This document shows, in pieces, positions 3,073 through 21,317 of a DNA stretch of 64,000 nucleotides. Each line of letters starts with the position of its first letter. Within the stretch, counting starts at the first letter, position 1. This DNA is from a virus, in the IMG/VR virus record IMGVR_UViG_3300029551_000174, positions 62,603 to 126,602 of that record; one strand, given 5' to 3'. Both the position numbers and the translations under genes were made by a program. The notes beneath the pieces were generated by a model. The model was not told the DNA's origin, ran no database searches, and saw nothing but the letters and a program-made list of their open reading frames with translations.

Positions 3073-3999
3073 ATGACAGGATTCAAAAGTGAAAATGTCG
3101 AATTGGAGGCTTTGCCAGTAGCCTCATCAGTTTTAAACAACTTCAAAGAAGGAGGTGTTAGAGTTGTAGAAATTATTGAGCATGACGGCAAGCAATCCGT
3201 GAACGCAAGGGAACTGCACCAAAAGTTGGGCAGCAAGCAGCAGTTTGCTAATTGGATTAGAAATCGTATTGAAAAGTACGGATTCGTTGAAAATCAAGAC
3301 TTTTGCTCATTTAATAAAGTTATTAAACGAGAAAATGGTGCTACAACAGTTACAGAGTATGCCCTTTCGCTAGATATGGCGAAGGAGTTGTGCATGGTTG
3401 AGAACAACGAGAAAGGCAGGATGATTCGCAAGTACTTTATTGAGGTTGAGAAGAAGGCTAGAACACAAAATCCATTTGCAATTCCTCAGACTTATTCTGA
3501 AGCCTTGCTTCTTGCTGCAAACCAAGCAAAGCAAATCGAAAAGCAGCAATTGGCATTGGAGCAGAAGAAAATTGAGAATGACAAGCTGGTTGCAGATGGT
3601 AAGCGCAAGGACGCAACCATAGTACGTATGAAGCCTAAAGAGGTATTCACGGATGCGGTTGCAGGTAGCAAGGGCAATTGCCTAGTTGGTGAGGTTGCGA
3701 AGTTGATAACCCAGAATGGCTACAAGATTGGCGAAAAGCAATTTTTTGCTTGGTTGCGTGATAATGGCTACCTTGGAAAGAAAGGAGAGCGTTACAATAT
3801 TCCTAACCAGCAGTATATGGGTAAGAATCCTTTGTTTTATATCAAGAGAGGTGTGCGACAGGGTGATAATGGAGTGTTGCACACGACAAGTACAACAATG
3901 CTGACACCAAAGGGACAGATTTATTTCGTAAACAAGTTCCTTGGAAAAGGAGGTTTGCAAGGCGATCTGTTTGCGAATGGTGAGGCACACGATAAATAA
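3073..3999 (+). CDS. Phage antirepressor, Bro-N domain + KilA-C domain
   Basis: N-terminus (VEIIEHDGKQSVNARELHQKLGSKQQFANWIRNRIEKYGFVENQDF) is typical of Bro-N. C-terminal KilA-C-like region. Paralogs at 20277..21158 and 16936..17688. Confidence 0.75.
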   Translation: MTGFKSENVELEALPVASSVLNNFKEGGVRVVEIIEHDGKQSVNARELHQKLGSKQQFANWIRNRIEKYGFVENQDFCSFNKVIKRENGATTVTEYALSLDMAKELCMVENNEKGRMIRKYFIEVEKKARTQNPFAIPQTYSEALLLAANQAKQIEKQQLALEQKKIENDKLVADGKRKDATIVRMKPKEVFTDAVAGSKGNCLVGEVAKLITQNGYKIGEKQFFAWLRDNGYLGKKGERYNIPNQQYMGKNPLFYIKRGVRQGDNGVLHTTSTTMLTPKGQIYFVNKFLGKGGLQGDLFANGEAHDK

Positions 4000-8531: not shown

Positions 8532-11500
8532 ATGTCAACGTTAGAATTTAATATCAAAGCGAATTTCGACCAAATCAAGCAAGCCAAGCAAGAGCTTGTA
8601 AGATTGCAAGGTGAGTTATTGAAGACTTCGAGAGCGACAGATAAATCTGTGGTTCAAGACCTCACGGATAAATATGCGGAACAAAAGCGTAAAGTAACCG
8701 AACTAAACGAAGCAATGGGTCGTTATATTATGGTAACGAGCAGCGATTATGCAAAGAAAATGCAATCTTTGACAAGGGAAGTATATGCTTTTGAATTGCA
8801 AGCCGACTCGTCCAGGCGAAAGATAGAGAAGCTTTCCAATGAGATAGCGAAGATGGAAAGCAAAATGCGCAGAGGTGGCCTTGATGTAGGAACAAGCGCA
8901 ATTCTTTCTGATAATATATCATCCAGCTATGCCTCGTTGAAAGACGAAAAGGCTAGACTGGAGAATCTTACGGGATTAGGTAAGCAAGCGAGACAAGAGT
9001 TACAGAATATGCAAACGGAATATGCTAAGTATTCGGGTTCTGTATCTCCTGCTAAGGATATGACCAATCAAATGACAAATGCATTTGCCCAAATGATTGC
9101 GGAAATGAAGCAAGCCCCTACTGTCGGTGAAGGTATTTCTTCATTATTTGGTCGTTTGAATGGAGACGCAAGGCAACTAGCTATGAGTTTGGTTGGAGGT
9201 CTGGGTCTTGAACAATTGGCTGAGCACATCTTTAACGTCCGCTCTCAATTCCAACAATTGGAAATTTCTTTTACGACAATGTTGGGTAGTGAGCAAAAGG
9301 CTGGTGCGCTTATGGATGAACTTATCCAAACTGCTGCTCGCACACCTTTCAACATGACAGACGTTACAGAAGGCGCAAAACAACTTTTAGCATATGGAAT
9401 TCAAGCCAATGAAGTAAATGACACCTTGGTACATTTGGGTGATATAGCTTCTGGCCTTAATGTTCCTTTGTCGCAGCTTGTTTATTTGTACGGCACGACC
9501 ATTTCGCAAGGAAGAATGTTTACAATTGACTTGCGTCAATTCATGGGTCGAGGCATTCCGATGGCAGAGACGTTGGGGCAAATCATGGGTAAGACCGTAT
9601 CCCAAGTGCAAGAAGCAGTAACGAAAGGTGAAGTCGGTGCAGACCTTGTGAAAGAAGCGATTGTGAGGATGTCAAGCGAGGGCAGCAAATTCGGAGGCCT
9701 GATGAGCAAGCAAGCCGAAACCCTTCAAGGTCGTTGGTCGAACATAGAAGATACGATAGACCAAGCAATCAACTCTATAGGACAAAAGACACAAGGAATC
9801 TTTGGAACAGGTCTTGACTTAATATCTTCTCTGATAGAGAATTGGGAAACTTTGGTTAAAGTTATTGGTTCAGCGGCTGTTATGGTCGGAACTTACAAAG
9901 CTGGCTTGATGGCAGCGGCAAGCATTCAGAAGGTTCAGAATGCTATGACAATGGCATCAATCACAGAGGAACTTGATTCTAAGTTAGGAGAGGCAAGAGA
10001 CCAAGAAAACAACTTCCGTTCCTTAAATGGTAAAGACACCAAGCAGTATCGGGCAAATAGATACAAGGCTTTAGGTGATGCTATTGCCGATACGTCAAAC
10101 ATCGGTGATGATAAGACCGAGAAAATCGTCTCAAAACAAATTGAGATGGCGAGAAACGAGGGGCTTATCACCGAGCAGATGGCTCAACAACTCCAAACAA
10201 AGCGAGATTTATTGGTTGCCCAGCAAAAGGCTGCTGATAATGAGCGTATGGAGTATGAGAACGCAAAGCGGACAAAAGAAATAGAAGAGGAAGCCGCACG
10301 ACAGAAGAGAGCCGATGCGGAAATGGCTGCTGAAATAAACGCAAAGGCTGCAAAGAAAGCCGCTATAGACGAGGCTAACAATACTCCTTTGGGTAAGGCT
10401 ATTCTTAACACAAATGCTATAGAGGAAAAGAAGAAACAGGCAGAGGTAAGCATTGAATTAGCCAAAGAAGAAGCAAGGGAACAACATGGAATTGTTGAGG
10501 AAATCGGTGCTCAAATCAAAAAACAAGAAGAACTTGTAGCCGCAAAAAAGGAGCAGGTAAAGTCTTCATACCAAAACGTGACTGATTTGGGCGGTTATGA
10601 TGATAGCTTTGGTGATGATTTGAAATTACGAGACCAAGCAGTAAATCAATATGTAGCTGAGCAGCAAAAGTTGAACGACCTCAAGCAGAAGAGTTATGAG
10701 GCTTCCCAAAAGGCATATATCGCAGACCAAAAAGTATTGGGTATGCAAGAAGACCTTAAAGGTGTAACCCAAGAGCTTAATCAAGCTATAGAGGAGGAAA
10801 ACCGAATCTATGGAGAAACTGGCTCTAATGCGGACGAGATAAACAAGCTGGTGAATGAGGGGGTTGCGGCAAAAGAGGGCGATACGGCTGCGGTTAATGC
10901 AAATACTGCTGCTAAACAAGGGAACACGTCAACAGAAAATGCCAACTCAACGGCACGAAACGCTAATACCGGAGCTACCACAAGACAATCTGCATCAAAT
11001 GTGGCAAACACAACCACAGAGAATGTTAATTCTGCGGCTACCGGAGCGAATACGGCTTCTCAAAACGTGAATACAAGTGCGAAGCAACGCAATTCCTTTG
11101 TTACTGGTATGATGTCAGTTGGTACAAAGGCAGCAACCTTGGCTCAATCGGCTTTTTCTTGGGCAACTAATGCTTTGACAACAAGCTTGCGTAGTCTTTG
11201 GGCTGCAATGCTTGCAAATCCATTGACAACTGTCATTACTTTAGTGAGCACAGCTATTTCTGTATTCTCTATGTTTGGTGACGAAACTGAAGATGTTGCG
11301 ACAAAGACAACAAATATGGGGAATAAAGCATCCGAGGCTAGTGCCAAGGTTCGTTCCCTGTTTGCTATCTTAGGGGCAGGCAAGGATGCGGAAAACCACA
11401 AAGAGACAATAGATGCATTGAAAAGCGCATACGAAGAGTATGGTGTAAAGCTCGATGAAACAATTATGAAGTCCGAAAACGAAGCTTCAAAGGTACAAGA

Positions 11501-14500
11501 GCTTATAAAGCATAAGGAAGATTTGATAGGCGTTATCGAAGAGCAAACTATTGCTATGCAACATCAAAATGCCGTGCAGCAGATTTATGATACATACAAG
11601 AACGAGAAGGATAAAGCTAAAACGAATTTCATAAATGCCACGGATGGTGTTCTTACCAAGGAACAAGCAGGAATGGCGACAATGGTGGTAAGCCAAGAAG
11701 ATTTGGATAAAATGGCGAAGCTGCAAGATGAAATCGATGGATTGGATGAAAGGACTAACAAGTACAAAGAAACAGTAGCAAAGCTACGATTAGTATCTGG
11801 AAATGTATACAAGGATATTGAAGCGTACTATCTCAATCTGGGATTGACAAAAGAACAAATATCAGAAATAACCGCTGAGACATATAGCTATATTGCAGCA
11901 AGCACACGTGCCAATGTAAATAAGCAAAAGTCTCTTGAGATGGAGGATAAGTCAAGAGCGGCAGCAGAGAAAACAAGGAATGCTATTAATAATCTTTCAG
12001 GTAGTACAAAGGAGAATGCCGAACGTAACAGGTTGGCGAAAAAGTCATTTAAGGAAATGGCTGTTGAAATGGATGAAATCCGAAAGATTTGCGAGAGAAC
12101 TTATCATATGAAAATCAAGGTGGATTATGATGATAAATCATTGCCGGCTTGGATTAAGAATATGTCTCAGAGCCAAAGAGTAGAAAGTGCAAGAGCAAGA
12201 TTGGCATGGTTGAAAGCCCATAAGCCAGGAGATACAACAAAGAAGTTTGGTGGTGTAAATAAGGATTATTGGACTATTTATAATGAAAACCGAGGGCTTC
12301 AATACAAGGGGGAAAAGGTAGAGAGTACACCAACCGAGACTGAGGCTCAGAGAAAGAAACGTCTCGCTGCTGAAGCTAAGAAAAAACGTGAAGCGGAACG
12401 TGCGGCAACTAAGGCAGAGCGTGAAGCAAATCAAAAGGAGACGATGGCTGGTAACAAGCGCAAGGCTGAGGAGGACTATTCCAAGTCTATTTCATCCTAT
12501 TCGGAGAGAGCAAGCGATGAGTTGTCAAAGCGAAGAACGGAATTGATTAAGAATGAGACCGAAAAGGAGATTGCTCAAATTAATATGTCTTCAGACAAGG
12601 AGAAAAAGGCTATAGAGGATTCTATTGACAAACTCGTTGAGGCTAAGAAGAAGAAAGACCAGATCGTTTGGGTAAATTCGGGAAAAGGTCGTAAAGCCAA
12701 CATGTGGAAACAGGGTAAGTCCGATGCGGAATACCGCAAAGAGGTCTTGGACACACAAATGGTTGACGACAAGGGTAATCATCTTGGGAAGACCATTGGG
12801 CAGAACTCAGAAGACCAAATTGCCTTGATTGAGAAACAGAGGCAATTAAAGCTGAAGGAAATACAGCAAGCAGAGATTAAGGACATGTTGGATTTCATGA
12901 AGCAATACGGCAGCTTAGAGCAACAACGTTATGCTATTCTGAAAGAATACACGGACAAGATAGACCTTGCTAGAGAGAAAGGTGATACTTTTGGCGCAGC
13001 GAGTGCGGAAATGGAGATGAACGACCAGTTGAAGAAGTTGAATTTTACGGATTTCAAGGATTCTATCAATTGGGATGTTGTCTTTCAGGATATGAACCGA
13101 TTGAGTATTCCTTATCTTGAAGACCTTCGCAAGAAGATGAAGGAGTTGCTTGGTTCGGGTACGTTGGAAATTGATGACATGAAATCCGTATCTGACCAAA
13201 TCTACAAGATTGATGATGCGATTTCCGAGCAGAAGGATAGATGGGGATTGGTTAATGATGCAGTCCGTGAACACCGTAGGCTTATTGATGAGGCAAAGGA
13301 TGCGCAAGACCGATTGGCACAAGCTAGGAAGGGGGAGTTTGATGCCAAGGCTGATAATATGAGCCAAAGGAGAAAAATCCAAGGCGTGTTTGCAGAAAGT
13401 GGGGTTAACATAGATACCAGTAATATCACTTCTGCCAATAAGGACAAACTTATGAGTTCTACCAAGAATCTCAGTGTAAGCCAAACGGAGAAGTTACGTA
13501 AGCTTTTTGATGATTTGGCGGTTTCAGAGGTTAAGGTTGGAAAGGCAACAAAGGAAGTTGGAAAGGCACAGGAAGAAGCCAAGGTAAAGCAGGATGCTGC
13601 AAAGAAGAGCTTGCATGATACTATAGAGGAATGGGCTGAGGGCTTGAGGAAAATCCAAGAGAAGCTGAAAGACCTTCCTGGGTTAGTCGATGCGTTAGGT
13701 CTCGGAAGCACAGGCTTTGGTAAAGCTGTAAATAATGGAATGGATGCATTGAACAGTGGAACACAAGCCTTTTCTGATTTTGCAAGCGGAAACTACATAG
13801 GCGCAGCTATGAATGGAATAAAAACCATTAGCTCGTTGGGTAAGATGTTCGGTATTGGCGGAGGTAATGGTGCAGAAGTTGCGAAGAAAACAGAAGAGCT
13901 GACCGAGAGCAATGACAGATTGATGTATTCCATTGATAAGTTAAAAGAGTCTATTGACAAATCTTCCGGTTATACAGCCGTCAGCAACTATAATGCTGCT
14001 TACGATGCTCAAAAACAGGTTAACACCCAAACGATGGATATTCTCAAAACACAGATGGGGTATCATGGGGCACACCATTCAAATGCTTATTATTGGAATC
14101 TTTCTGCACAAGATTATGCGGCAATCAATAAGACTTTGGCTGAGCAAAGTAAGATAAGGGGTGGTTATACTAATTCTTCGATAAACAAGGTCAATTCCTT
14201 GGAGGATATATACAAGCTCACTCCAGAGCAGATGGCTGACATTCGTACACATAATGCGGATGTATGGAAGAACATGACCGACCAAGGCAAGTATGATAAG
14301 ACGGAATATTGGGAGCAATATACAGAACTGGCGGGAAAACTAGAGGAGTTGACGGAGCAAATCAATGAGAATTTGACTCAAACAACCTTTGATTCGATGA
14401 AGAGTGACTTCATAAACAATCTTATGGATATGAGTAAGTCTGCAAAGGATTTTTCTAATGACTTCACTACAATGCTCAACCAGTCGATGCTTAACTTCGC

Positions 14501-15065
14501 TTTGGGAGACCTTATGAATAAAAAGCTTAAGCCTCTTTATGAGAGCTGGGCAAACAAGATGAAGGAGAATGGAGGAAGGCAGCTCACGCCAACCGAATTG
14601 AATAATCTTAAAGAAGAGTATGATAAGATAGTTCAAGAGGGTTTGGCTATTCGTGATAATATTGCTGATATTACGGGTTACAAGCAATCTTACGAGCAGT
14701 CCGCTTCTTCCGGTTCTTTTGAATCAATGAGCCAAGATACAGGAGAAGAGTTGAATGGTCGTTTCACAGCGGTGCAGATCGCCACAGAGGGAACGTACGA
14801 GGAAGCAAAGCTCATAAATACCAAGTTGGATGCTATTGCTGCTCGTGATGGTGGTATAGAGGGTAGCTTATTAACGGCTAGCGTGAATACCATTATGGGT
14901 GATGTAGGTAATATATGGACCGCCGTTGATGAGGGAAGAACCATTCTTGCACAAAGTTTGATGTGCTTGCAGTCGATAGATGAGCGACAAGAAAGCTGGA
15001 ATAAGCATATTTTACAGATGAGCCGTAATCTTGACACTATCAAAAACAAGGTGGATAGGTTGTAA
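8532..15065 (+). CDS. Tail tape-measure-like protein (2177 aa)
   Basis: Uninterrupted 6.5 kb ORF. Extensive coiled-coil-type K/E/Q-rich sequence. Internal hydrophobic segment (FSWATNALTTSLRSLWAAMLANPLTTVITLVSTAISVFSMF). N/T/A-rich degenerate repeats (NANTAAKQGNTSTENANSTARNANTGATT...). Confidence 0.65.
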   Translation: MSTLEFNIKANFDQIKQAKQELVRLQGELLKTSRATDKSVVQDLTDKYAEQKRKVTELNEAMGRYIMVTSSDYAKKMQSLTREVYAFELQADSSRRKIEKLSNEIAKMESKMRRGGLDVGTSAILSDNISSSYASLKDEKARLENLTGLGKQARQELQNMQTEYAKYSGSVSPAKDMTNQMTNAFAQMIAEMKQAPTVGEGISSLFGRLNGDARQLAMSLVGGLGLEQLAEHIFNVRSQFQQLEISFTTMLGSEQKAGALMDELIQTAARTPFNMTDVTEGAKQLLAYGIQANEVNDTLVHLGDIASGLNVPLSQLVYLYGTTISQGRMFTIDLRQFMGRGIPMAETLGQIMGKTVSQVQEAVTKGEVGADLVKEAIVRMSSEGSKFGGLMSKQAETLQGRWSNIEDTIDQAINSIGQKTQGIFGTGLDLISSLIENWETLVKVIGSAAVMVGTYKAGLMAAASIQKVQNAMTMASITEELDSKLGEARDQENNFRSLNGKDTKQYRANRYKALGDAIADTSNIGDDKTEKIVSKQIEMARNEGLITEQMAQQLQTKRDLLVAQQKAADNERMEYENAKRTKEIEEEAARQKRADAEMAAEINAKAAKKAAIDEANNTPLGKAILNTNAIEEKKKQAEVSIELAKEEAREQHGIVEEIGAQIKKQEELVAAKKEQVKSSYQNVTDLGGYDDSFGDDLKLRDQAVNQYVAEQQKLNDLKQKSYEASQKAYIADQKVLGMQEDLKGVTQELNQAIEEENRIYGETGSNADEINKLVNEGVAAKEGDTAAVNANTAAKQGNTSTENANSTARNANTGATTRQSASNVANTTTENVNSAATGANTASQNVNTSAKQRNSFVTGMMSVGTKAATLAQSAFSWATNALTTSLRSLWAAMLANPLTTVITLVSTAISVFSMFGDETEDVATKTTNMGNKASEASAKVRSLFAILGAGKDAENHKETIDALKSAYEEYGVKLDETIMKSENEASKVQELIKHKEDLIGVIEEQTIAMQHQNAVQQIYDTYKNEKDKAKTNFINATDGVLTKEQAGMATMVVSQEDLDKMAKLQDEIDGLDERTNKYKETVAKLRLVSGNVYKDIEAYYLNLGLTKEQISEITAETYSYIAASTRANVNKQKSLEMEDKSRAAAEKTRNAINNLSGSTKENAERNRLAKKSFKEMAVEMDEIRKICERTYHMKIKVDYDDKSLPAWIKNMSQSQRVESARARLAWLKAHKPGDTTKKFGGVNKDYWTIYNENRGLQYKGEKVESTPTETEAQRKKRLAAEAKKKREAERAATKAEREANQKETMAGNKRKAEEDYSKSISSYSERASDELSKRRTELIKNETEKEIAQINMSSDKEKKAIEDSIDKLVEAKKKKDQIVWVNSGKGRKANMWKQGKSDAEYRKEVLDTQMVDDKGNHLGKTIGQNSEDQIALIEKQRQLKLKEIQQAEIKDMLDFMKQYGSLEQQRYAILKEYTDKIDLAREKGDTFGAASAEMEMNDQLKKLNFTDFKDSINWDVVFQDMNRLSIPYLEDLRKKMKELLGSGTLEIDDMKSVSDQIYKIDDAISEQKDRWGLVNDAVREHRRLIDEAKDAQDRLAQARKGEFDAKADNMSQRRKIQGVFAESGVNIDTSNITSANKDKLMSSTKNLSVSQTEKLRKLFDDLAVSEVKVGKATKEVGKAQEEAKVKQDAAKKSLHDTIEEWAEGLRKIQEKLKDLPGLVDALGLGSTGFGKAVNNGMDALNSGTQAFSDFASGNYIGAAMNGIKTISSLGKMFGIGGGNGAEVAKKTEELTESNDRLMYSIDKLKESIDKSSGYTAVSNYNAAYDAQKQVNTQTMDILKTQMGYHGAHHSNAYYWNLSAQDYAAINKTLAEQSKIRGGYTNSSINKVNSLEDIYKLTPEQMADIRTHNADVWKNMTDQGKYDKTEYWEQYTELAGKLEELTEQINENLTQTTFDSMKSDFINNLMDMSKSAKDFSNDFTTMLNQSMLNFALGDLMNKKLKPLYESWANKMKENGGRQLTPTELNNLKEEYDKIVQEGLAIRDNIADITGYKQSYEQSASSGSFESMSQDTGEELNGRFTAVQIATEGTYEEAKLINTKLDAIAARDGGIEGSLLTASVNTIMGDVGNIWTAVDEGRTILAQSLMCLQSIDERQESWNKHILQMSRNLDTIKNKVDRL

Positions 15066-15070
15066 TACAA

Positions 15071-15130
15071 AAGGTGTGGAGAAATACAACTAAGCGCATG
15101 TATGCGTCCAGATGCAAGTCTCCACACCTT
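15071..15130 (+). terminator. Long hairpin after the tape-measure gene (aaggtgtggaga ... tctccacacctt)
   Basis: 12-bp inverted repeat enclosing a 36-nt loop. Followed by a second hairpin, gggaaa-aa-tttccc. Confidence 0.45.
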
Positions 15131-15865
15131 GAAAGTAGCCGAGGGAAAAATTTCCCCGAGGGTTCATTTCCTAAATTTGTGAAATGAAGAAGTAAGAAGA
15201 TGCTCGCTTAATAAAATTATTAGATGAGGGGTTAAGCATCATTTACCCCCATTGAAAGCAAATGGTAAGGTTTTTCATAAAGTTGTGAAAAACGTATGCA
15301 GTACAAATCCATAGAAAATGTGTTCATAATAAGTGTATGGAAATTGACAAAAAGTGTCAACGATTAAAAAAAACAAAAAATCACATTAGTCTATATTATT
15401 TATCAGATGTAGGGGTGTCGCTACAGGCTACACCCCTTAGACTTGCCAAAATTGGCAAAACTGACCCAAACAAAGTTTGTATTAGGTGTTCCTAGGATGG
15501 AAACCCTTTAGCGTTGACTAATAAGCGTGAATGAAAGATAATAATTACTAAGATAGTAGAACCAGATGGTGATTGCTAGCAAGATTAAGAAGATGGTGCA
15601 AGGATGATAGAAAAGGGGTGTCTTCAAAAATGATAATACCCCAAAATTGGTGTATTTGGTAGCCTCAGCGATTAAAAGGTGTAAAAATCTCACCTTATTG
15701 TTTATTAAAAGAGGTCTCCACAATTTTGAGGACACCCCATTTTGTAGGTTTTAGCCAGAATTGTCAAAAACTGATTAAGGGTAGGAACATTGTTCCGATC
15801 AGGTTATCCACAAGGGGTTTTTAACTAGATAGTTATAAACTTGATAGGAACACTTTCAACGAGTC

Positions 15866-15977
15866 CAGATTTGGGCTAGTACGAGGGCGCAAAATTGCTT
15901 TCTCGTTGATTATCAAGCGTTACCCCAAAAAGTTAGTACGAGAGCCTAAAAATCGGCTATCGTTGAAAATCAAGATG
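15866..15977. repeat. Two tandem ~45-bp imperfect direct repeats (TAGTACGAG-R-GC..AAAA(T)..CGTTGA..ATCAAG)
   Basis: 15870-15918 (tagtacgagggcgcaaaattgctttctcgttgattatcaagcg) versus 15929-15974 (tagtacgagagcctaaaaatcggctatcgttgaaaatcaag). Confidence 0.6.
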
Positions 15978-16158
15978 TTACATAGTTTTCCCCCATTTGG
16001 GTGAAAACCATCGGGCTTGTTTTCTAGCTCGTTGAATGATTGGTGTTGTCTCCAAAGGTTCAATAGGACAGAATATCCGTCCTATTTATCCTTTGAAATG
16101 CAACCACAAATCACATTTGGATTGTGGAACGGACGCAAATCTGCTTTGGTTGGCATCT

Positions 16159-16599
16159 TTATTGTTCAAATAAATATTTCCATTGGTTATTATCCTCTAC
16201 ATAACATTCACCATATGGGAAGTCTTCATATATTTCTTTATTTAATGAAATGAATAAATGTCTTTCTGAATATTTTGATTCAGTATTAAAAAGAACATCA
16301 AATGTTTTAATTTCCGTTTCTCCATCTAACTTTATGGACAAAATTCCATCTTTTACAAAATATGTTCCTGTATGCTTTGAGTTGAAACCACCAAAAGAAT
16401 TATAAGTACGATAAGCAACTTTGTTGCTCTTAAATCCAATAATACCGCTAACTCCTTTGCTGTACCAAATAGTGTTATCTAGCATTTCTGCTGTAACTTG
16501 CTCATTCTTTGGGTATTCATCAGTATTGTCGCTAGAGCACGATGTTAGCACAATCATTGAAGCAAATATTAGGGCAAACACAAATAAAAGTTTCTTCAT
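16159..16599 (-). CDS. Lipoprotein (lipobox LTSC)
   Basis: MKKLLFVFALIFASMIVLTSCSSD. Only leftward gene in this region. Confidence 0.55.
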   Translation of the reverse strand: MKKLLFVFALIFASMIVLTSCSSDNTDEYPKNEQVTAEMLDNTIWYSKGVSGIIGFKSNKVAYRTYNSFGGFNSKHTGTYFVKDGILSIKLDGETEIKTFDVLFNTESKYSERHLFISLNKEIYEDFPYGECYVEDNNQWKYLFEQ

Positions 16600-16809
16600 A
16601 ATCCTATACTTTTTAATTATTGAACTTTGTGGGGAACCCCCACGTTACTTAACTCTTTCCAGTTTATCCAGCACATCCCTAGCTCCAGCTATGGATGATG
16701 CGGAATACTAGTATGTAAAAGTACATCTTTTATACGAAACCGCCATTGTTCATCTTTATATTTAACTATCATTATACTATCTGTTATATTTTATTATAAT
16801 AATCTTTTT

Positions 16810-16856
16810 TTGCATTAATATGCTTGCAAGTTACACTAAAAAGTCGTATCTTTGCA
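16810..16856 (+). promoter_or_regulatory. Bacteroidetes promoter (-7 'cgtatctttgca')
   Basis: Consensus. Followed by the leader hairpin at 16899. Confidence 0.5.
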
Positions 16857-16898
16857 TCCGATTTCCACATTATAGGAATAATAGCTTAATTTTTAGAG

Positions 16899-16921
16899 CG
16901 TGAGTCACACGTTAAAAACTG
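16899..16921 (+). promoter_or_regulatory. Conserved leader hairpin element (cgtg-agtca-cacg + ttaaaaactg)
   Basis: Motif family. Confidence 0.5.
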
Positions 16922-16935
16922 AAAAGGAAAATAGA

Positions 16936-17688
16936 ATGAATGAGATTAAAGTGATTAACAAGTCAATGCTTCTTGGAAAGGAGATTGACGTGTATGGAAC
17001 TGCTGATGAGCCTTTGTTTAAGGCAAAGGACGTGGCAAGTTGGTTGGATATTCAGAATGTTTCTGACATGATAAAGAATATCGACCAAGATGAAAAGGTG
17101 TTAGATTCAATCTATACCCTTGGTGGAACACAAGAAGTTTGGTTGCTTACTGAGGATGGGGTGTATGAGGTCTTGATGCAAAGCCGTAAGCCAGTAGCCA
17201 AGCAGTTCAAGAAAGGAGTGAAGACCATCTTGAAGTCTATTCGCAAGACAGGTGGCTATTCCGTGGCTGGAACTATTACTGATAAGACGAAGGCAGGCAT
17301 GATTTGGGTGAAAGGCTGCAAGGAGCTTTTGAACTTAAACGATGCATCAACACTTGCATTGATGCAAAAGGTAGCCGAACCTTTAGGCTTGCCAACTCCA
17401 GACTACGTAAGCAGTAAGGGTGTCTTGAAGTCTTTGAGTGTATTGCTTGAAGAGAAGGGCATTGGAATATCTACACAAGCATTTAACAAGCTCCTAGTCA
17501 AGGATGGTTTGTTGCAAGTGCTTTATAGAAAAAGTAGTAAAGGTAAGCAAAAACAATTCAAGAACATTACCGAGAAGGGCTTGCCTTATGGTGAGAACAA
17601 GCAAAACCCAAAGAATCAGTCTGAGACACAGCCTTTGTGGTATGAGGATAAGTTCGATGAGGTTTTGAAGATTGTAGGCTTATTGTAG
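16936..17688 (+). CDS. Bro-N domain antirepressor-like protein
   Basis: ATG start downstream of the hairpin, in place of the track's GTG inside the motif. Bro-N-like N-terminus. The C-terminal part (KVAEPLGLPTPDYVSS...) is homologous to the middle of 20277..21158 (KIAEPLGLPTPDYVSA, ...KGLAYGEN...TQP.WY..KF.EVL.I.G). Confidence 0.65.
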   Translation: MNEIKVINKSMLLGKEIDVYGTADEPLFKAKDVASWLDIQNVSDMIKNIDQDEKVLDSIYTLGGTQEVWLLTEDGVYEVLMQSRKPVAKQFKKGVKTILKSIRKTGGYSVAGTITDKTKAGMIWVKGCKELLNLNDASTLALMQKVAEPLGLPTPDYVSSKGVLKSLSVLLEEKGIGISTQAFNKLLVKDGLLQVLYRKSSKGKQKQFKNITEKGLPYGENKQNPKNQSETQPLWYEDKFDEVLKIVGLL

Positions 17689-17835
17689 AGGAATATATTT
17701 GAAACGATTTTAAATACGATAAACAGGAAGACGTTCATACCTTAATGAATAGTGAACAATTCACAGAAGGTATTGATTATCAAGTTTTGCGCAATAATGC
17801 ACAAAACCACAAGGAATAAGAATAGAAGTGTTGAA

Positions 17836-17862
17836 GGAGAGGAATACTATTTCCCCTCCTTT
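17836..17862. terminator. Bidirectional hairpin terminator, copy 2 (ggagaggaatactatttcccctcc)
   Basis: Near-identical to 1275-1300. Confidence 0.5.
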
Positions 17863-18020
17863 TTGTTCTTCGTTCATCACATAGACGGGGGATTTTCTTG
17901 TACCTCCATTAGGCATTGGAATATCCATAGAAATCAACTTGAAATCCCTGATAAGGTCTTGGAAACCAATGTGAGCCGATTTTTCGGCTCACATATCGAA
18001 TACAATATCTGCACCCATAC

Positions 18021-18269
18021 TTATCCCTCCACCTTAATATTGATAGGCTTACCACAATGAGGGCAAGTAAAGATTGGCTTGGTTGGTTCTATTTCATCTT
18101 TAAAGAAGTCACCAACTTTGCACCCTAATACATCAGCAATACGTAGCAATGTCTTCATCGTTGGGTTACGGCTGAGGTTTTGGGTGAAAGTAAATCTTGT
18201 AATACCCATTTCTTTTGCTACCTGTTCGATAGTAAATCCCTTTTCTTTGATAATTGTTTTAACGTCCAT
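18021..18269 (-). CDS. XRE-family HTH regulator with C-terminal zinc ribbon (CPHCGKPI), copy 2
   Basis: HTH (FTIEQVAKEMGITRFTFTQNLSRNPTMKTLLRIADVLG) followed by C-x-x-C. Confidence 0.7.
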   Translation of the reverse strand: MDVKTIIKEKGFTIEQVAKEMGITRFTFTQNLSRNPTMKTLLRIADVLGCKVGDFFKDEIEPTKPIFTCPHCGKPINIKVEG

Positions 18270-18454
18270 ATTTCTTATATATATTAATGTGAGACTTTAT
18301 TTTGTGTGCAAAGATAATACATATAAATGAAACTACCAAATTTTTTCTTTGTTTTGTGCAGGTAAGTTCTAACAATGTGAATAAAAGTAAAGAATAAAAT
18401 CTAAATTATCTTATTTTGTTAATGATTGTTTATATTCTAACATTTTCTCTCAAA

Positions 18455-18497
18455 TTGTTTGGTATGTTAGAATATATTTTGTATCTTTGCATCGTGA
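18455..18497 (+). promoter_or_regulatory. Bacteroidetes promoter (-7 'ttgtatctttgca') plus the shared leader 'tcgtgattaagaaacaaaggt'
   Basis: Consensus. The leader resembles the 22805 and 44465 cassettes. Confidence 0.5.
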
Positions 18498-18549
18498 TTA
18501 AGAAACAAAGGTCACAAGAACATTATTAATTTAGTTGAGGCAGCGCCTC

Positions 18550-18573
18550 CGTGTTCGGCACACGTAAAACGGT
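18550..18573 (+). promoter_or_regulatory. Leader hairpin variant (cgtg-ttcggca-cacg + taaaacggt)
   Basis: Pairs with the 1944-1966 variant. Confidence 0.5.
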
Positions 18574-18581
18574 ATAGCAAT

Positions 18582-18764
18582 ATGACTACTTCAATGATAA
18601 GAAGAAACTTGATTCAGAAGTTCGTTATGACAGAGTTCGTAAGCAACAGAATGAACACCCAAAAGGACGTTGATAGAATGTTGAATATGATAACAATAAA
18701 GCTCAATATGAACAACGATGAGGCTAAGAGCTTCTTGCGTGAGAGCATCGGACTTGCAAAGTAA
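18582..18764 (+). CDS. hypothetical small protein
   Basis: 60-aa ORF after the leader hairpin. Confidence 0.4.
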   Translation: MTTSMIRRNLIQKFVMTEFVSNRMNTQKDVDRMLNMITIKLNMNNDEAKSFLRESIGLAK

Positions 18765-18798
18765 GTAATTTAAGTTTAACGTTTAAAATTGAAAGATT

Positions 18799-19128
18799 AT
18801 GGCTACTACATTTAAGAATATGATGAGAGAAGTGATGAAGCTTGCTTGGCAGTTCATCAAGAAGAATGGCTACACAATGAGCGAGGCTTTAAAGGTCGCT
18901 TGGATGAACATCAAGCTGAAGGGTCAGATGAAGAAGCGCATCGTGAAGTTCTACTTCCAGAAGGTTGATGGCAGCTTGCGTGAGGCATTCGGCACATTGA
19001 GCGAGAAGGTTATCCCAGCTACACAGGGTGCAGGTCGCAAGATGAATGACACTTGCCAAGTGTACTTTGATACCGAGAAAGAAGAATGGCGTTGCTTCAA
19101 GAAGGCAAACCTTATGAGAGTTGCATAA
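18799..19128 (+). CDS. hypothetical protein (paralog of 1975..2313)
   Basis: Alignment. Confidence 0.6.
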   Translation: MATTFKNMMREVMKLAWQFIKKNGYTMSEALKVAWMNIKLKGQMKKRIVKFYFQKVDGSLREAFGTLSEKVIPATQGAGRKMNDTCQVYFDTEKEEWRCFKKANLMRVA

Positions 19129-19160
19129 CAGATTTCTAACGATTTAAAAAGAAACTAGAT

Positions 19161-19460
19161 ATGAGCGCAAAGATTATCGTGATGCAAGGCAACATGGTTG
19201 CAACCATCGAAGAGACGAACAAGGACGCATTTCTCAAGCGTGGAGAGTATAAAGAGACCGATCTGGACAGACATAAGCGTGAGGTCGATTTCTTGATTAC
19301 AAGCATCGCTAACCGCTACGAAGTGACATTCAATCACAAGGTAGAGCTGAAGGAAAGCCGAAGCATCAAGAAAAGCGAGTATTTCGATAACATCTACTAC
19401 GTTACCGAGAATGCATTGAACAAGCTGAAAAAGCAATACTCATACGAGTGTGACTTGTAA
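19161..19460 (+). CDS. hypothetical protein
   Basis: ORF in series. Confidence 0.45.
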   Translation: MSAKIIVMQGNMVATIEETNKDAFLKRGEYKETDLDRHKREVDFLITSIANRYEVTFNHKVELKESRSIKKSEYFDNIYYVTENALNKLKKQYSYECDL

Positions 19461-19467
19461 TAGATTT

Positions 19468-19490
19468 CGTGAGGCACACGCTAAACTGCA
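19468..19490 (+). promoter_or_regulatory. Conserved hairpin element (cgtg-aggca-cacg + ctaaactg)
   Basis: Motif family. Directly after the stop of 19161..19460. Confidence 0.5.
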
Positions 19491-19521
19491 CCGGACTTTG
19501 GACATTAAATATTTAAGAGAT

Positions 19522-19821
19522 ATGGATAAGAATTTGATGGATGCTCTTTACGTTGAGCATGATGGCAAGATTGGCGTTTTAAGCTCAGATGAGTACAAGG
19601 TGGTATCACAGGTTATCGGCACGGATTTGACGCTTGTGTACGACAAGAAAGAGGGTAATACGTACCTTTTGATACCACTAACCCGAAAACATAAGTTCGA
19701 ATGCAATTGTAGTCACATTATCGTGGATGGCAAGCGGTTCGATTCTGACATCTTTTTCCGCAAGGATGCTTGCCAATGGATTCAGATGCAATCAAAAGAA
19801 ATGCTATTAATGGTAGCGTAA
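19522..19821 (+). CDS. hypothetical protein (paralog of 2661..2957)
   Basis: Start moved to the internal ATG matching the paralog N-terminus (MDKNLMDALYVEHDGKIGVL). Confidence 0.55.
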   Translation: MDKNLMDALYVEHDGKIGVLSSDEYKVVSQVIGTDLTLVYDKKEGNTYLLIPLTRKHKFECNCSHIIVDGKRFDSDIFFRKDACQWIQMQSKEMLLMVA

Positions 19822-19832
19822 CATAAAATTAA

Positions 19833-19858
19833 GGTGAGGCACACTTGAACAACTGCAC
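19833..19858 (+). promoter_or_regulatory. Conserved hairpin element (ggtg-aggca-cac + ttgaacaactg)
   Basis: Motif family. Confidence 0.45.
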
Positions 19859-20276
19859 ATTATCTTTGAGGTTTAACAATTAATTCCGTGAGCAATGGAA
19901 AGAAGAAGTAATGTGCAGCACCGTGCCTTGAAAGTTGGTCGTGCTGGCGATGGCAGAAGTCCTCCAATGTCAAACGAATGTTAATGTTTTAAATAAAACA
20001 CTAAAGCATTTGCAAGTTAGAGAAAATAGCATTAACTTTGCAGCCGAAAGTTATAATGGTTGTGAAGCGAAGAGCACGACTGGAAAGAAATTGAGAATTG
20101 TAAAAATAACACATAAATTTCATTTACTCCAAGCGTGGAGTATCGTCATTCCGTCCTTCTCTTCGCTTTAATGGATGGTTGACACAAGCCCTGTCCGCAC
20201 TTTCCACATTAGCGGATGGGGCTTTTCGTTTCCACCACAGCCAAATGTAATTATTAACAATTTAAATTTTAGGTAA

Positions 20277-21158
20277 ATGACATTAGAATTTAACAAAACT
20301 GATGTAAATGTAGAGGCTTTACCAGTAGTCTCAGAGTTCCTTAACAAAGAAAAGAGAGGTATTGAAGTTGTAGAGATTATCGAGCATGACGGCAAACAAG
20401 CCGTGAACGCAAGGGAGCTGCACCAAAAGTTGGGCAGTAAGCAAGACTTTTCAACATGGATTAAAAATCGCATAGAAAAGTATGGATTCGTTGAAAATCA
20501 AGATTTTGAAGTTTTCCACAAAATTATGGAAAACTCAAATGGTGGTCGAAGTCGTATTGAGTATGCCTTATCTTTGGATATGGCAAAGGAGTTGTGTATG
20601 ATAGAGAACAATGAGCAAGGTAGATTGTTCCGTAAGTACTTCATCGAAGTCGAGAAAGTTGCCAGAGTCAAGTACGAGCAGGAGAAGCTGGACAAGAAGG
20701 CTTCCGATTCCTTTGACATCAAGCTGAAGTGGTTGAACTTTCTTCCTGGTTATCTGAACCTCAGCGATGTTTCCAAATTGGCGATGGCTAAGAAAATTGC
20801 TGAACCATTAGGGTTGCCGACACCTGATTATGTGAGCGCACCGAATGGTGCAAAGCATTCCGCTACGGAGTTATTGAAATCTCATGGTGTAGGCTTGTCT
20901 GCTCGAAAGTTCAATGAGTTGGCGGTAAAGGCAGGATTATTGAAGCTAAAAGAGCGCAAGGGTACGAACAAGGTACACAAGTATTGTGAGATTACCAAGA
21001 AAGGATTGGCTTATGGTGAGAACGACATCAACGAGAAGAATATGAATCAAACACAACCACATTGGTATGATTCTAAATTTGGGGAGGTATTGGAAATCAT
21101 CGGCTACAAGTCATCCAAGCAAGTAGATATGTTTGCAAGCGGTGAGACACACGATTAA
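20277..21158 (+). CDS. Phage antirepressor, Bro-N domain protein
   Basis: N-terminus (VEIIEHDGKQAVNARELHQKLGSKQDFSTWIKNRIEKYGFVENQDF) is ~90% identical to 3073..3999. The C-terminus differs and matches 16936..17688. Confidence 0.75.
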   Translation: MTLEFNKTDVNVEALPVVSEFLNKEKRGIEVVEIIEHDGKQAVNARELHQKLGSKQDFSTWIKNRIEKYGFVENQDFEVFHKIMENSNGGRSRIEYALSLDMAKELCMIENNEQGRLFRKYFIEVEKVARVKYEQEKLDKKASDSFDIKLKWLNFLPGYLNLSDVSKLAMAKKIAEPLGLPTPDYVSAPNGAKHSATELLKSHGVGLSARKFNELAVKAGLLKLKERKGTNKVHKYCEITKKGLAYGENDINEKNMNQTQPHWYDSKFGEVLEIIGYKSSKQVDMFASGETHD

Positions 21159-21165
21159 ACTGTAG
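21141..21165 (+). promoter_or_regulatory. Conserved hairpin element overlapping the 3' end of the antirepressor gene (ggtg-agaca-cacg + attaaactgtag)
   Basis: Encodes SGETHD*. Confidence 0.5.
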
Positions 21166-21277
21166 TAATATTGATATATAATCGAGAAGGAGGGGAATGC
21201 GTGATGCACTCTCCTCTTTTTTATGTCTGAAAGTTTTTGTTTTTCACAATATAGATAAGTGTTGTTAAACTGAATGC

Positions 21278-21317
21278 TAATTTTTGGTAGAGTGGAATAT
21301 AATAGTTATCTTTGTGG
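21278..21317 (+). promoter_or_regulatory. Bacteroidetes promoter (-7 'ttatctttgtgg')
   Basis: Consensus upstream of thyX. Confidence 0.45.

What the first reader, a model, noticed from the sequence alone, without database searches (positions are those of the whole stretch)
15066..16160. 1.1 kb protein-free region after the tape-measure gene, with repeated GGGGTGTC/GACACCCC pairing segments
No ORF longer than 75 aa is present. The region contains a 12-bp-stem hairpin (15071-15130) and a gggaaa/tttccc hairpin. It has three forward copies and one reverse copy of GGGGTGTC (15411, 15614; reverse complements at 15429 and 15731). These allow a local hairpin (15411-15436) and a long-range helix enclosing about 120 nt (15614-15738). 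Density of structure without coding capacity suggests a structured non-coding RNA, a packaging (pac/cos) or origin region, or an attachment site.
Basis: seen in the sequence. Interest (0 to 1): 0.6.

Follow-up and report, generated by a model that had tools for sequence, protein, structure and literature searches.

The report
Decayed antirepressor genes plus terminator hairpins
The 1.1 kb gene-free stretch after the tape-measure gene is real and rich in hairpins, but it is most likely wreckage of broken antirepressor genes with a few terminator-type hairpins, in a swappable part of a gut Bacteroidota phage genome, so it is ordinary.

Summary
Window 15066-16158 has no plausible gene under any stop-codon recoding. 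GGGGTGTC and its complement occur only here in 64 kb, and the region folds better than its coding flanks.

The proposed functions are not supported.
- Of 74 informative close relatives, 68 lack the region, and the next gene follows the tape-measure gene within 1-207 nt. It is therefore not this phage's pac/cos site, origin or attachment site.
- It matches no Rfam family.
- None of the phage's 13 strong Bacteroidetes-type promoters lies in it.

About 500 of its roughly 1,090 nt are recognisable fragments of AntA/Rha-type antirepressor genes. All fragments are in + orientation, scrambled, tandemly duplicated and full of stops. One profile match has nhmmer E 2e-6, and four segments beat all 200-300 shuffles. 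Several "hairpins" are a palindromic codon stretch inherited from those genes.

The GGGGTGTC...GACACCCC hairpins resemble intrinsic terminators found elsewhere in related elements. They sit between convergent transcription units. The 132-nt "long helix" encloses the 5' end of a dead AntA gene.

The central 620 nt is 96-99% identical to a module in about 16.4 kb integrase-bearing elements that otherwise barely resemble this phage. This indicates recent recombination.

A functional RNA cannot be excluded without transcript data.

In passing, I found a structured leader RNA with strong covariation upstream of the antirepressor genes, at 20041-20262.

The parts
15071..15130 (.). Hairpin T1, directly after the tape-measure stop codon (15063-15065). 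It has a 12-bp perfect stem that extends to 29-nt arms. On the minus strand it is followed by TTTTGTATTA.
   Evidence: (I1). It is kept in L001, L002, L003, L011, L038, L041 and L044, and in shortened form in L043. A C-to-T change gives G.U on the + strand.
15163..15188 (.). Small hairpin TTCATTTCC...GAAATGAA. Its loop holds the only -7-like motif in the gap (TAAATTTG).
   Evidence: I16. A C-G to G-C compensatory change occurs in L077. There is no matching -33 element.
15201..15387 (+). Decayed fragment of the second half of an AntA antirepressor domain. CSLNKIIR corresponds to CSFNKVIK, and KVFHKVVKN to EVFHKIMEN.
   Evidence: Smith-Waterman score against the AntA gene 3304-3476 is 48; 0 of 300 and 0 of 200 dinucleotide shuffles reach it. 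nhmmer places 15266-15297 on the same AntA segment at a non-significant E 0.084.
15345..15362 (.). Palindrome TTGACA-AAAAG-TGTCAA.
   Evidence: It is replaced by TTTACCA-AAAAG-TGGTAAA in L002, L011, L038 and L041. That is two fully compensatory pair changes.
15412..15436 (.). Hairpin H1: GGGGTGTCGC-TACAG-GCTACACCCC.
   Evidence: (I21). The stem is kept with different loops in relatives. Sequence variation between relatives begins inside its loop.
15447..15606 (+). Second decayed copy of the AntA-domain second half, plus an N-terminal scrap (IIITKIVEPDGD, compare IEVVEIIEHDGK).
   Evidence: Smith-Waterman score against the L006 AntA-type gene (nt 246-396) is 45; 0 of 200 shuffles reach it. The 21-nt stretch 15443-15463 matches window 717-737, which codes IAKNGKT. 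nhmmer places 15545-15572 on the AntA profile at a non-significant E 0.49.
15611..15742 (.). Long inverted repeat H2. The GGGGTGTC/GACACCCC stem is extended to 19-22 bp, flanked by AAAA and ATTTT, and encloses 88 nt.
   Evidence: (I2). It is near-identical in 13 other contigs. Three stem substitutions all give G.U on the + strand, and one substitution breaks a pair.
15623..15677 (+). Decayed 5' end of an AntA-type gene inside H2. FKNDNTPKLVYLVASAIK corresponds to FKSENVELEALPVASSVL.
   Evidence: Smith-Waterman score against AntA1 nt 10-65 is 41; 0 of 200 and 1 of 300 shuffles reach it.
15745..15779 (+). Another possible copy of the GGTTTT...AAAAC codon palindrome of the AntA domain.
   Evidence: nhmmer E 0.11, not significant on its own, + strand. 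Direct repeat D4 with 15268-15293. The wider stretch 15746-15880 is not significant against any AntA gene.
15877..16011 (+). Tandem degenerate units with 57-nt spacing, derived from the ...KYGFVENQDFEVFHKI... part of AntA/Rha genes.
   Evidence: D1. 89% identity over 44 nt to the L091 Rha-type gene. nhmmer E 2e-6 for 15951-16010. hmmsearch scores 4.8 bits; 0 of 300 shuffles reach it.
16053..16095 (.). Hairpin with 20-nt arms (85% complementary) in the conserved right-hand block.
   Evidence: I6. On the minus strand there is only a chance-level match to CRISPR-DR49 (19.7 bits, gathering score 41, E 4). L077 has an unrelated hairpin here.
16126..16153 (.). Junction motif GGAACGGACGCAAATCTGCkTTGGTTGC, just 3' of the minus-strand ORF 16159-16599.
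   Evidence: It recurs in 18 IMG/VR stretches, next to different upstream and downstream modules.

Best explanation
The gap is non-coding filler in a recombination-prone accessory slot between the last tail-operon gene (tape measure, + strand) and a convergent minus-strand gene (16159-16599).

About 500 of its roughly 1,090 nt (about 45%) are traceable debris of AntA/Rha-type antirepressor genes, of which this phage carries several intact paralogues. The fragments are all in + orientation, out of order, partly duplicated in tandem, and broken by stops and frameshifts.

Some of the hairpin density is inherited. The codons for ...VF.K..EN... form a GGTTTT(N15)AAAAC palindrome that appears up to four times. 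The rest probably arose from local inverted and tandem duplication.

The GGGGTGTC...GACACCCC hairpins are terminator-type stem-loops that separate the two convergent transcription units. In this window the second hairpin has been stretched to a 132-nt inverted repeat around a dead AntA 5' end.

The central 620 nt was recently exchanged by recombination with a family of about 16.4 kb integrase-bearing elements.

Shown: non-coding status, homology to antirepressor genes, absence from most relatives, and the mosaic identity pattern. Inferred: the terminator role of the hairpins, and the absence of any further function.
For: 1. Not a gene. Stops occur in all six frames, and six-frame Pfam and PHROGs scans find nothing.

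2. Antirepressor origin.
- 15932-15975 is 89% identical to a Rha-type gene in L091. The Smith-Waterman score is 69, against a shuffle maximum of 44.
- An AntA DNA profile hits 15951-16010 at E 2e-6. Four weaker placements on the same profile (E 0.084-4.1, not significant individually) also fall on the + strand.
- An AntA protein profile scores 4.8 bits; 0 of 300 shuffles reach it.
- 15201-15387, 15447-15606, 15623-15677 and 15947-16008 each beat all 200 dinucleotide shuffles, while the reverse-complement scores sit at background.

3. Dispensable. Of 74 informative IMG/VR relatives, 19 have a 38-39 nt gap, 39 have a 100-149 nt gap before a P63C-HTH or ThyX gene, and only 6 carry a roughly 630-nt short form.

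4. No independent promoter. A weight matrix built from the phage's own promoters gives 13 strong sites in the window, and none lies in the gap on either strand.

5. Terminator-type hairpins. The same arm motif forms canonical terminators in L096: GGTGTCC-ATTAGAC-GGACACC followed by TTTTTTTT, and AAAAAAGGGGTG...CACCCCTTATTTG. H2 is flanked by AAAA and ATTTTGTAGGTTTT.

6. Recent exchange. The window differs from 9 small elements by 0.6-4% in 15412-16035, by 23% in the tape-measure 3' end and by 56% in the tape-measure body. Diversity of the gap centre among the small elements (0.008-0.034) equals their baseline of 0.027. The high identity therefore does not point to special constraint.
Against: - Five or six base pairs in four small hairpins change on both sides and stay paired, against 0-1 in slid controls. 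This could reflect selection on structure. Quasi-palindrome (template-switch) correction could produce the same pattern without selection.
- Three of four stem substitutions in H2 keep pairing through G.U on the + strand.
- The gap folds better than its flanks.
- 15746-15880 and 16046-16160 have no traceable origin.
- The terminator scan found no canonical terminator in 14800-17000, and H1 lacks a U tract.
- No transcript data were available.
Confidence: 0.6

Rival explanations
1. The region encodes one or more functional structured RNAs. Candidates are a stabilising 3' UTR of the tail operon, an sRNA ending at the GGGGTGTC hairpins, or (on the minus strand) a 3' UTR of ORF 16159-16599 that is antisense to the conserved core of the antirepressor mRNAs.
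For: - Folding z is -5.9 for 15600-15760 on the + strand.
- The gap is more structured than its flanks.
- Compensatory changes occur in four hairpins.
- G.U-preserving substitutions favour the + strand in H2.
- The fragments share up to 17 identical nt with both intact AntA genes, so a minus-strand transcript could pair with their mRNAs.
Against: - No Rfam family matches at the gathering score or at E<1.
- No phage-type promoter lies on either strand.
- Most close relatives lack the region.
- Consensus folding gives similar energies on both strands (-62.6 against -56.6 kcal/mol).
- Copies of the 132-nt element are too alike to test covariation.
- The paired segments are largely explained by gene-derived palindromes.
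Confidence: 0.2
2. The central module is a cis-acting DNA site, such as a packaging signal or replication origin, that belongs to the roughly 16.4 kb integrase-bearing elements. It is shared with large phages because the small elements exploit them as helpers.
For: - The long form of the gap occurs mainly in 15-21 kb contigs. These encode an integrase and a TMP-like protein but no recognisable capsid or terminase, and at least one contig is circularly permuted relative to others.
- The module is 96-99% identical between these elements and the window, while the flanks are 23-56% divergent.
Against: - Within the small elements the module is no more conserved than the tape-measure body (0.008-0.034 against 0.027).
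- Short and intermediate architectures show that the centre is dispensable and rearranged.
- Close relatives of the window phage lack it.
- The sequence is made of antirepressor-gene fragments.
- A separate 0.8 kb non-coding region lies next to the integrase.
Confidence: 0.1
3. The 132-nt inverted repeat (15611-15742) is a miniature mobile element, MITE-like or IS200/IS605-like, that inserted into a hairpin.
For: - It has 19-22 bp terminal inverted repeats around 88 nt.
- Relatives have a short hairpin at the same place.
- Variation between relatives starts inside the hairpin loop.
Against: - There is one copy per genome, always at the same locus.
- No target-site duplication is present.
- No match was found in 185,579 species genomes for a 26-mer from its interior.
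- Its interior is the 5' end of an AntA gene.
Confidence: 0.05
4. Part of the region mimics a CRISPR repeat (a solitary repeat unit or RNA anti-CRISPR) or a ToxI-type antitoxin repeat.
For: Weak matches exist to CRISPR-DR49 on the minus strand at 16045-16110 (19.7 bits) and to ToxI at 15644-15676 (18.2 bits).
Against: - Both matches have E about 4 and score less than half the gathering score.
- L077 and L078 replace the DR49-like hairpin with an unrelated one.
- There is no repeat array.
- No match to the type II-C repeat pattern occurs in any of the 78 loci held when the search was run.
Confidence: 0.03

Closest known systems
Gene remnants and pseudogenes at mosaic junctions of tailed-phage genomes (established knowledge of phage mosaicism and accessory 'moron' slots)
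   Same: The region is variable between close relatives. It sits between conserved modules, carries recognisable broken pieces of a multi-copy phage gene family (AntA/Rha antirepressors), and is flanked by short shared junction sequences (16126-16153).
   Different: The fragments are unusually scrambled and tandemly repeated, with up to four copies of one 30-nt codon stretch. The same debris is shared at 96-99% identity with much smaller integrase-bearing elements.
Intrinsic (rho-independent) bidirectional terminators between convergent genes
   Same: G+C-rich stems (GGGGTGTC/GACACCCC) sit between convergent transcription units. H2 is flanked by an A tract and a T-rich tract. Related elements use the same arm motif in canonical terminators.
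   Different: H1 has no U tract. H2 has an 88-nt interior, far larger than a terminator loop. The consensus scan called no terminator here.
Helper-satellite pairs that share cis sites (P2/P4 cos, cos-type PICIs; from my own knowledge)
   Same: A non-coding module is nearly identical between a large phage and small integrase-bearing elements that lack capsid and terminase genes.
   Different: The module is dispensable in close relatives of the large phage. Within the small elements it is no more conserved than their coding DNA. No helper-satellite relationship has been shown.

Membership tests
Pseudogene fragments of AntA/Rha antirepressor genes (Pfam PF08346 AntA; Rha-type) | Detectable homology to intact family members | tested here: met
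   nhmmer E 2e-6 for 15951-16010. Four segments beat 200-300 dinucleotide shuffles. 89% identity over 44 nt to the L091 Rha-type gene. The protein profile scores 4.8 bits; 0 of 300 shuffles reach it.
Pseudogene fragments of AntA/Rha antirepressor genes (Pfam PF08346 AntA; Rha-type) | Reading frame destroyed by stops or frameshifts | tested here: met
   Stops occur inside the aligned fragments, for example STRA*KSAIVENQDVT*.
Pseudogene fragments of AntA/Rha antirepressor genes (Pfam PF08346 AntA; Rha-type) | Collinear coverage of one parent gene | tested here: not met
   Fragments of 10-60 codons are out of order and repeated. 15746-15880 and 16046-16160 are untraceable. This is debris from several events, not one decayed gene.
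Intrinsic terminator | G+C-rich stem-loop followed by a U tract | tested here: inconclusive
   The stems qualify. H2 is followed by ATTTTGTAGGTTTT and H1 by TTAGACTTG. The consensus scan found 0 sites in 14800-17000. The same arm motif occurs in canonical terminators in L096.
Intrinsic terminator | Mapped transcript 3' ends | not testable with these tools
   No RNA data were available.
Described structured RNA family (Rfam 15) | Match at the family's gathering score | tested here: not met
   Only tRNAs at 28.3-28.8 kb pass. The best hits in the gap have E 2.5-4.3 and score less than half the gathering score.
pac/cos site or replication origin of this phage | Conserved in close relatives | tested here: not met
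   Absent from 68 of 74 informative loci whose tape-measure C-terminus is mostly 92-99% identical.
pac/cos site or replication origin of this phage | Read-start pile-up in virion DNA, or origin activity | not testable with these tools
   No read data were available.
Phage attachment site (attP) | Next to an integrase; core identical to a host site, often a tRNA 3' end | tested here: not met
   None of the large window ORFs scanned is an integrase, and none lies near the gap. No tRNA lies in the region. In the small elements the integrase is 3.7 kb away with its own non-coding region. Two gap 20-26-mers have no exact match in 185,579 species genomes.
MITE / hairpin-targeting IS derivative | Terminal inverted repeats | tested here: met
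   22-nt arms, 86% complementary (I2).
MITE / hairpin-targeting IS derivative | Multiple dispersed copies and target-site duplication | tested here: not met
   One copy, always at the same locus. No duplication flanks the arms.
CRISPR solitary repeat / RNA anti-CRISPR | Clear similarity to a CRISPR repeat family, kept among relatives | tested here: not met
   CRISPR-DR49 scores 19.7 bits against a gathering score of 41, E 4. L077 has an unrelated hairpin here. The type II-C repeat pattern is absent from the 78 loci held when searched.

The most novel reading that the evidence does not exclude
The central 620-nt module (15412-16035), including the 132-nt inverted repeat, is a functional cis- or trans-acting element. 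It could be a packaging or replication signal, or an RNA antisense to antirepressor mRNAs. On this reading it is shared between large Bacteroidota phages and a family of about 16.4 kb integrase-bearing, capsid-less elements that parasitise them, and its near-identity across otherwise unrelated genomes reflects that dependence.
Probability: 0.08. Interest if true: 0.6.

Novelty: already known. Interest (0 to 1): 0.2.

Why it matters
As interpreted here it matters little. It is a case study of how hairpin-rich, ORF-free DNA in a phage can be the wreckage of a multi-copy gene family plus terminators, rather than an RNA gene or a packaging, origin or attachment site. It is a useful negative for genome scans: repeated pairing segments and good folding scores are not enough without conservation across relatives and a promoter.

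The by-products are more interesting than the finding. One is a covariation-supported leader RNA in front of the antirepressor genes. The other is a family of small integrase-bearing elements that exchange DNA with these phages.

Tried and rejected
- **Stop-codon recoding.** All three stops occur in every frame.
- **DGR template/variable repeat pair.** The gap has no second copy in the window.
- **Tandem-repeat array.** TRF finds none.
- **tRNA or tmRNA fragment.** None found.
- **Known RNA families.** Nothing at the gathering score or at a permissive E-value.
- **Sigma-70-type promoter scan.** Counts are at shuffle level: 11 found against 8.8 expected.
- **Bacteroidetes-type promoter matrix.** No site in the gap.
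- **Protein remnants.**
  - tblastn of the six-frame gap translation against the related loci gave nothing beyond syntenic DNA.
  - tblastn of 2,085 ORFs from the window and loci against the gap also gave nothing beyond syntenic DNA.
  - Pfam and PHROGs scans of the six frames gave nothing.
  - Only DNA-level and profile-level comparison with the phage's own antirepressor genes worked.
- **Similarity to 50,697 GenBank phage records.** Nothing significant.
- **The repeated motif CGTTGA as an iteron.** My first pattern was not enriched. The copies turned out to be the VENQD codons of antirepressor fragments.
- **REP-like reading of GTAG plus hairpin.** The hairpin occurs only at this locus.
- **High identity of the gap centre as a sign of constraint.** Rejected after the diversity comparison.
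- **Host identification.** Two exact-match scans of genome contigs found nothing.
- **First sliding-window fold run.** It timed out and was repeated at lower depth.
- **Literature searches.** Nothing specific turned up.
Full report
**Setting**

The window comes from an uncultured tailed phage of a Bacteroidota host. Three lines support this.
- G+C is about 38%.
- Thirteen strong promoters have the Bacteroidetes form TTTG-N20-TAnnTTTG.
- The capsid protein's nearest cultured relatives are Cellulophaga and Riemerella phages, at 25-29% identity.

The 2,177-aa tape-measure protein (8532-15065, Pfam TMP_3) is the last gene of a + strand block. After the gap comes a convergent minus-strand ORF (16159-16599, 146 aa, no family). 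A + strand Bro-N antirepressor follows, with its own promoter at 16823.

**Observation**

- Two exact forward copies of GGGGTGTC lie at 15412 and 15615.
- One exact reverse copy lies at 15731, and one 7-of-8 reverse copy at 15429.
- These are the only copies in 64 kb. Shuffles give 0.5 on average, and 2 of 100 reach three.
- The long pairing is a 22-nt inverted repeat (15611-15632 with 15721-15742) that encloses 88 nt.
- As RNA, 15600-15760 folds at -51.9 kcal/mol (z -5.9) on the + strand and -40.5 kcal/mol (z -3.6) on the - strand.
- All six frames carry all three stop codons, so recoding does not rescue a gene.
- In 150-nt windows the gap has mean z -2.1, against -0.9 and -1.2 in the coding flanks.

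**Relatives**

I fetched 76 IMG/VR loci through the tape-measure C-terminus, most at 92-99% protein identity. In these the DNA after the stop codon is a variable slot.

| Arrangement after the tape-measure stop | Loci |
|---|---|
| 38-39 nt, then a minus-strand 140-157 aa ORF | 19 |
| 100-128 nt, then a P63C-HTH gene | 13 |
| 120-149 nt, then ThyX (at 21312 in this window) | 26 |
| 1 nt | 8 |
| Other short gaps (77 and 207 nt) | 2 |
| About 630-nt non-coding stretch | 6 |
| Contig ends, uninformative | 2 |

The six loci with the 630-nt stretch are L002, L003, L011, L038, L041 and L044. Their stretch shares window 15066-15421 and 15985-16157. It has a single short hairpin, GGGGTGTCG-CAAATCA-CGACACCCC, in place of 15412-15742.

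Window 15066-21311 is therefore an accessory island. The gap is dispensable for close relatives, which rules out an essential pac/cos site or origin. None of the large window ORFs scanned is an integrase, and no tRNA lies near the gap.

**What the sequence is made of**

Nothing was found in Rfam, in six-frame Pfam or PHROGs scans, or among GenBank phages. The breakthrough came from comparing the gap with the phage group's own antirepressor genes.

- The tandem 57-nt units at 15877-15974 are 89% identical over 44 nt to codons 37-52 of a Rha-type gene in L091. The Smith-Waterman score is 69, against a shuffle maximum of 44.
- A DNA profile of 11 AntA-type genes hits 15951-16010 at E 2e-6.
  - That stretch corresponds to KYGFVENQDFEVF.KI.EN.
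  - Four weaker placements, not significant individually, fall at 15266-15297 (E 0.084), 15745-15779 (E 0.11), 15816-15849 (E 4.1) and 15545-15572 (E 0.49). All are on the + strand.
- The protein profile scores 4.8 bits on the same unit. None of 300 shuffled gaps exceeds 2.6 bits.
- Segment-wise Smith-Waterman tests against five AntA-type genes gave scores that no dinucleotide shuffle out of 200 reached for four segments:
  - 15201-15387, the second half of the domain (CSLNKIIR against CSFNKVIK);
  - 15447-15606, a second copy of that half;
  - 15623-15677, the 5' end of the gene (FKNDNTPKLVYLVASAIK against FKSENVELEALPVASSVL);
  - 15947-16008.
- The reverse-complement scores stayed at background in every one of these cases.
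- 15746-15880 and 16046-16160 remain untraceable.

Several of the 'hairpins' are the GGTTTT(N15)AAAAC stretch. This is already a perfect 8-bp palindrome in the intact AntA2 gene, GTTTTCCAcaaaattaTGGAAAAC, coding VFHKIMEN. Intact genes of the group also show tandem duplication of this stretch (L028). Truncated mini-copies occur elsewhere in the window, at 17741-17815.

**The GGGGTGTC hairpins**

Across 34 further contigs the stem is kept while the loop differs. The loops seen are CTACAGG, CAAATCA, TTAAGAACGAGT, TTAAAAACGAGT, ACGATTTG and GATGCAGG. Sequence divergence between architectures begins inside the loop.

One stem-end G-C became T-A in L002. The hairpin occurs only at this locus.

In the related element L096, canonical terminators use the same arm motif:
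- GGTGTCC-ATTAGAC-GGACACC followed by TTTTTTTT;
- AAAAAAGGGGTG...CACCCCTTATTTG.

H2 is flanked by AAAA and ATTTTGTAGGTTTT, as a bidirectional terminator would be, and it sits between convergent genes. I therefore read H1 and H2 as terminator-type hairpins. In this window the arms of H2 now embrace the dead 5' end of an AntA gene.

That reading is inference. The consensus scan called no terminator, and H1 lacks a U tract.

**Is there selection on structure?**

RNAalifold on eight copies of 15131-15450 finds 5-6 pairs with changes on both sides. An example is TTGACA/TGTCAA becoming TTTACC/GGTAAA. Controls with slid partners give 0-1 such pairs.

Energies are similar on the two strands (-62.6 against -56.6 kcal/mol). 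Templated quasi-palindrome correction is a non-selective route to the same pattern.

The 132-nt element is near-identical in 14 contigs. It has five variable sites:
- three stem changes that all give G.U on the + strand;
- one change that breaks a pair;
- one change in a loop.

This is too little variation to decide either way.

**Mosaic origin**

A metagenome scan for a left-block 20-mer returned 26 human-gut contigs. Twelve of them, plus IMG/VR L077 and L078, carry the long form. These share only 14697-16621 with the window.

They belong to elements with the following gene order:
- tyrosine integrase (PF00589, 2.5e-31);
- six ORFs with no family assignment;
- a 1,849-1,865 aa TMP-like protein, 36% identical to the window's at both ends;
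- the gap;
- a minus-strand ORF of 145 aa.

L096 is circularly permuted relative to L097 and L106, which implies a unit of about 16.4 kb. Seven assemblies give contigs of 15.0-17.3 kb.

| Region (window coordinates) | Diversity among nine small elements | Window against the small elements |
|---|---|---|
| Tape-measure body | 0.027 | 56% divergent |
| Tape-measure 3' end (14697-15065) | 0.165 | 23% divergent |
| Gap centre (15412-16035) | 0.008-0.034 | 0.6-4% divergent |
| Minus-strand ORF (16159-16599) | 0.36 | 29% divergent |

(All figures.)

The striking identity of the gap centre therefore reflects a recent recombinational exchange with this lineage. It does not reflect unusual constraint.

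The right-hand junction GGAACGGACGCAAATCTGCkTTGGTTGC recurs in 18 IMG/VR stretches between different modules. That is the behaviour expected of a recombination boundary.

**Verdict**

The best explanation, at confidence 0.6, is antirepressor-gene debris plus terminator-type hairpins in a swappable slot.

| Rival explanation | Confidence |
|---|---|
| A functional RNA | 0.2 |
| A cis site of the small elements | 0.1 |
| A MITE-like insertion | 0.05 |
| A CRISPR-repeat or ToxI mimic | 0.03 |

The finding is ordinary, with interest 0.2.

**By-products**

- Window 20041-20262 lies between the promoter at 20009-20040 and the AntA2 start codon. It is a conserved leader RNA.
  - It folds at -72.4 kcal/mol, z -5.7.
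  - Homologous copies in 45 or more BLAST hits precede both AntA- and Rha-type genes, at 74-99% identity.
  - In 23 distinct copies, 13 of 49 pairs show compensatory changes. That is 55 cells, against 0-9 in slid controls, and 0 of 500 shuffles reach the covariation score.
  - It ends in an intrinsic terminator about 35 nt before the ORF.
  - The only Rfam echo is a sub-threshold match to P22 sar RNA (E 0.39).
- The roughly 16.4 kb integrase-bearing elements described above deserve their own study.

Noticed in passing
window 20041-20262 (+), with promoter 20009-20040 and AntA2 start codon at 20277: A conserved, strongly structured 5' leader or sRNA lies upstream of AntA- and Rha-type antirepressor genes. 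MFE is -72.4 kcal/mol, z -5.7. In 23 distinct copies, 13 of 49 pairs show compensatory changes. It ends in an intrinsic terminator (20186-20243) about 35 nt before the ORF. No Rfam family matches; there is only a sub-threshold echo of P22 sar RNA. It is a candidate attenuator, riboswitch-like leader or sRNA controlling antirepressor expression.
   Followed up: partly
L096 (whole), L097, L106, L113, L117, L118, L077, L078: A family of about 16.4 kb, apparently circular or tandem, integrase-bearing elements. Each has a 1,849-1,865 aa TMP-like protein and no recognisable capsid or terminase genes. They share only the tape-measure 3' end, the gap and the next ORF with the window phage. They could be satellite-like or defective elements that recombine with large phages.
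   Followed up: partly
window 16126-16153; L084-L093: A 28-nt junction motif, GGAACGGACGCAAATCTGCkTTGGTTGC, recurs in 18 IMG/VR stretches between different upstream and downstream modules. It always lies just 3' of minus-strand ORFs. It is probably a shared recombination boundary.
   Followed up: partly
window 7305, 7633, 18458, 20009, 21283, 22771, 28152, 36824, 44434 (+); 18309-18340 (-); 16823 (+): A very uniform promoter set, TTTGCAAG...N...TATCTTTGCATCG, of Bacteroidetes -33/-7 type. It drives the early and accessory genes and the tRNA cluster. None precedes the tape-measure operon.
   Followed up: partly
window 17741-17815: A 24-codon mini-ORF (MNSEQFTEGIDYQVLRNNAQNHKE*) is a truncated copy of an antirepressor-type segment that also occurs in L087 and L089. 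It is further evidence of gene debris in the island.
   Followed up: partly
window 28326-28763 and 53118-54323: A cluster of five tRNA genes (Glu, Gln, Tyr and Lys, plus one that ARAGORN reports with an abnormal two-base anticodon 'gg' at 28614-28688). An RtcB RNA ligase gene is also present. Together they suggest a counter-measure to host tRNA-cleaving defences.
   Followed up: no
L028 9528-10463: An intact AntA-type gene carries an in-frame tandem duplication of the VENQD-EVFHKIM-NSN segment. This is the same stretch that is multiplied in the gap.
   Followed up: no
window 16621-16650; L105 and L098: A short palindrome, GTGGGGAACCCCCAC (GTGGGGACACCCCAC in L105), lies just upstream of the start of the minus-strand ORF 16159-16599. 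Its function is unknown, and that ORF has no canonical promoter.
   Followed up: no
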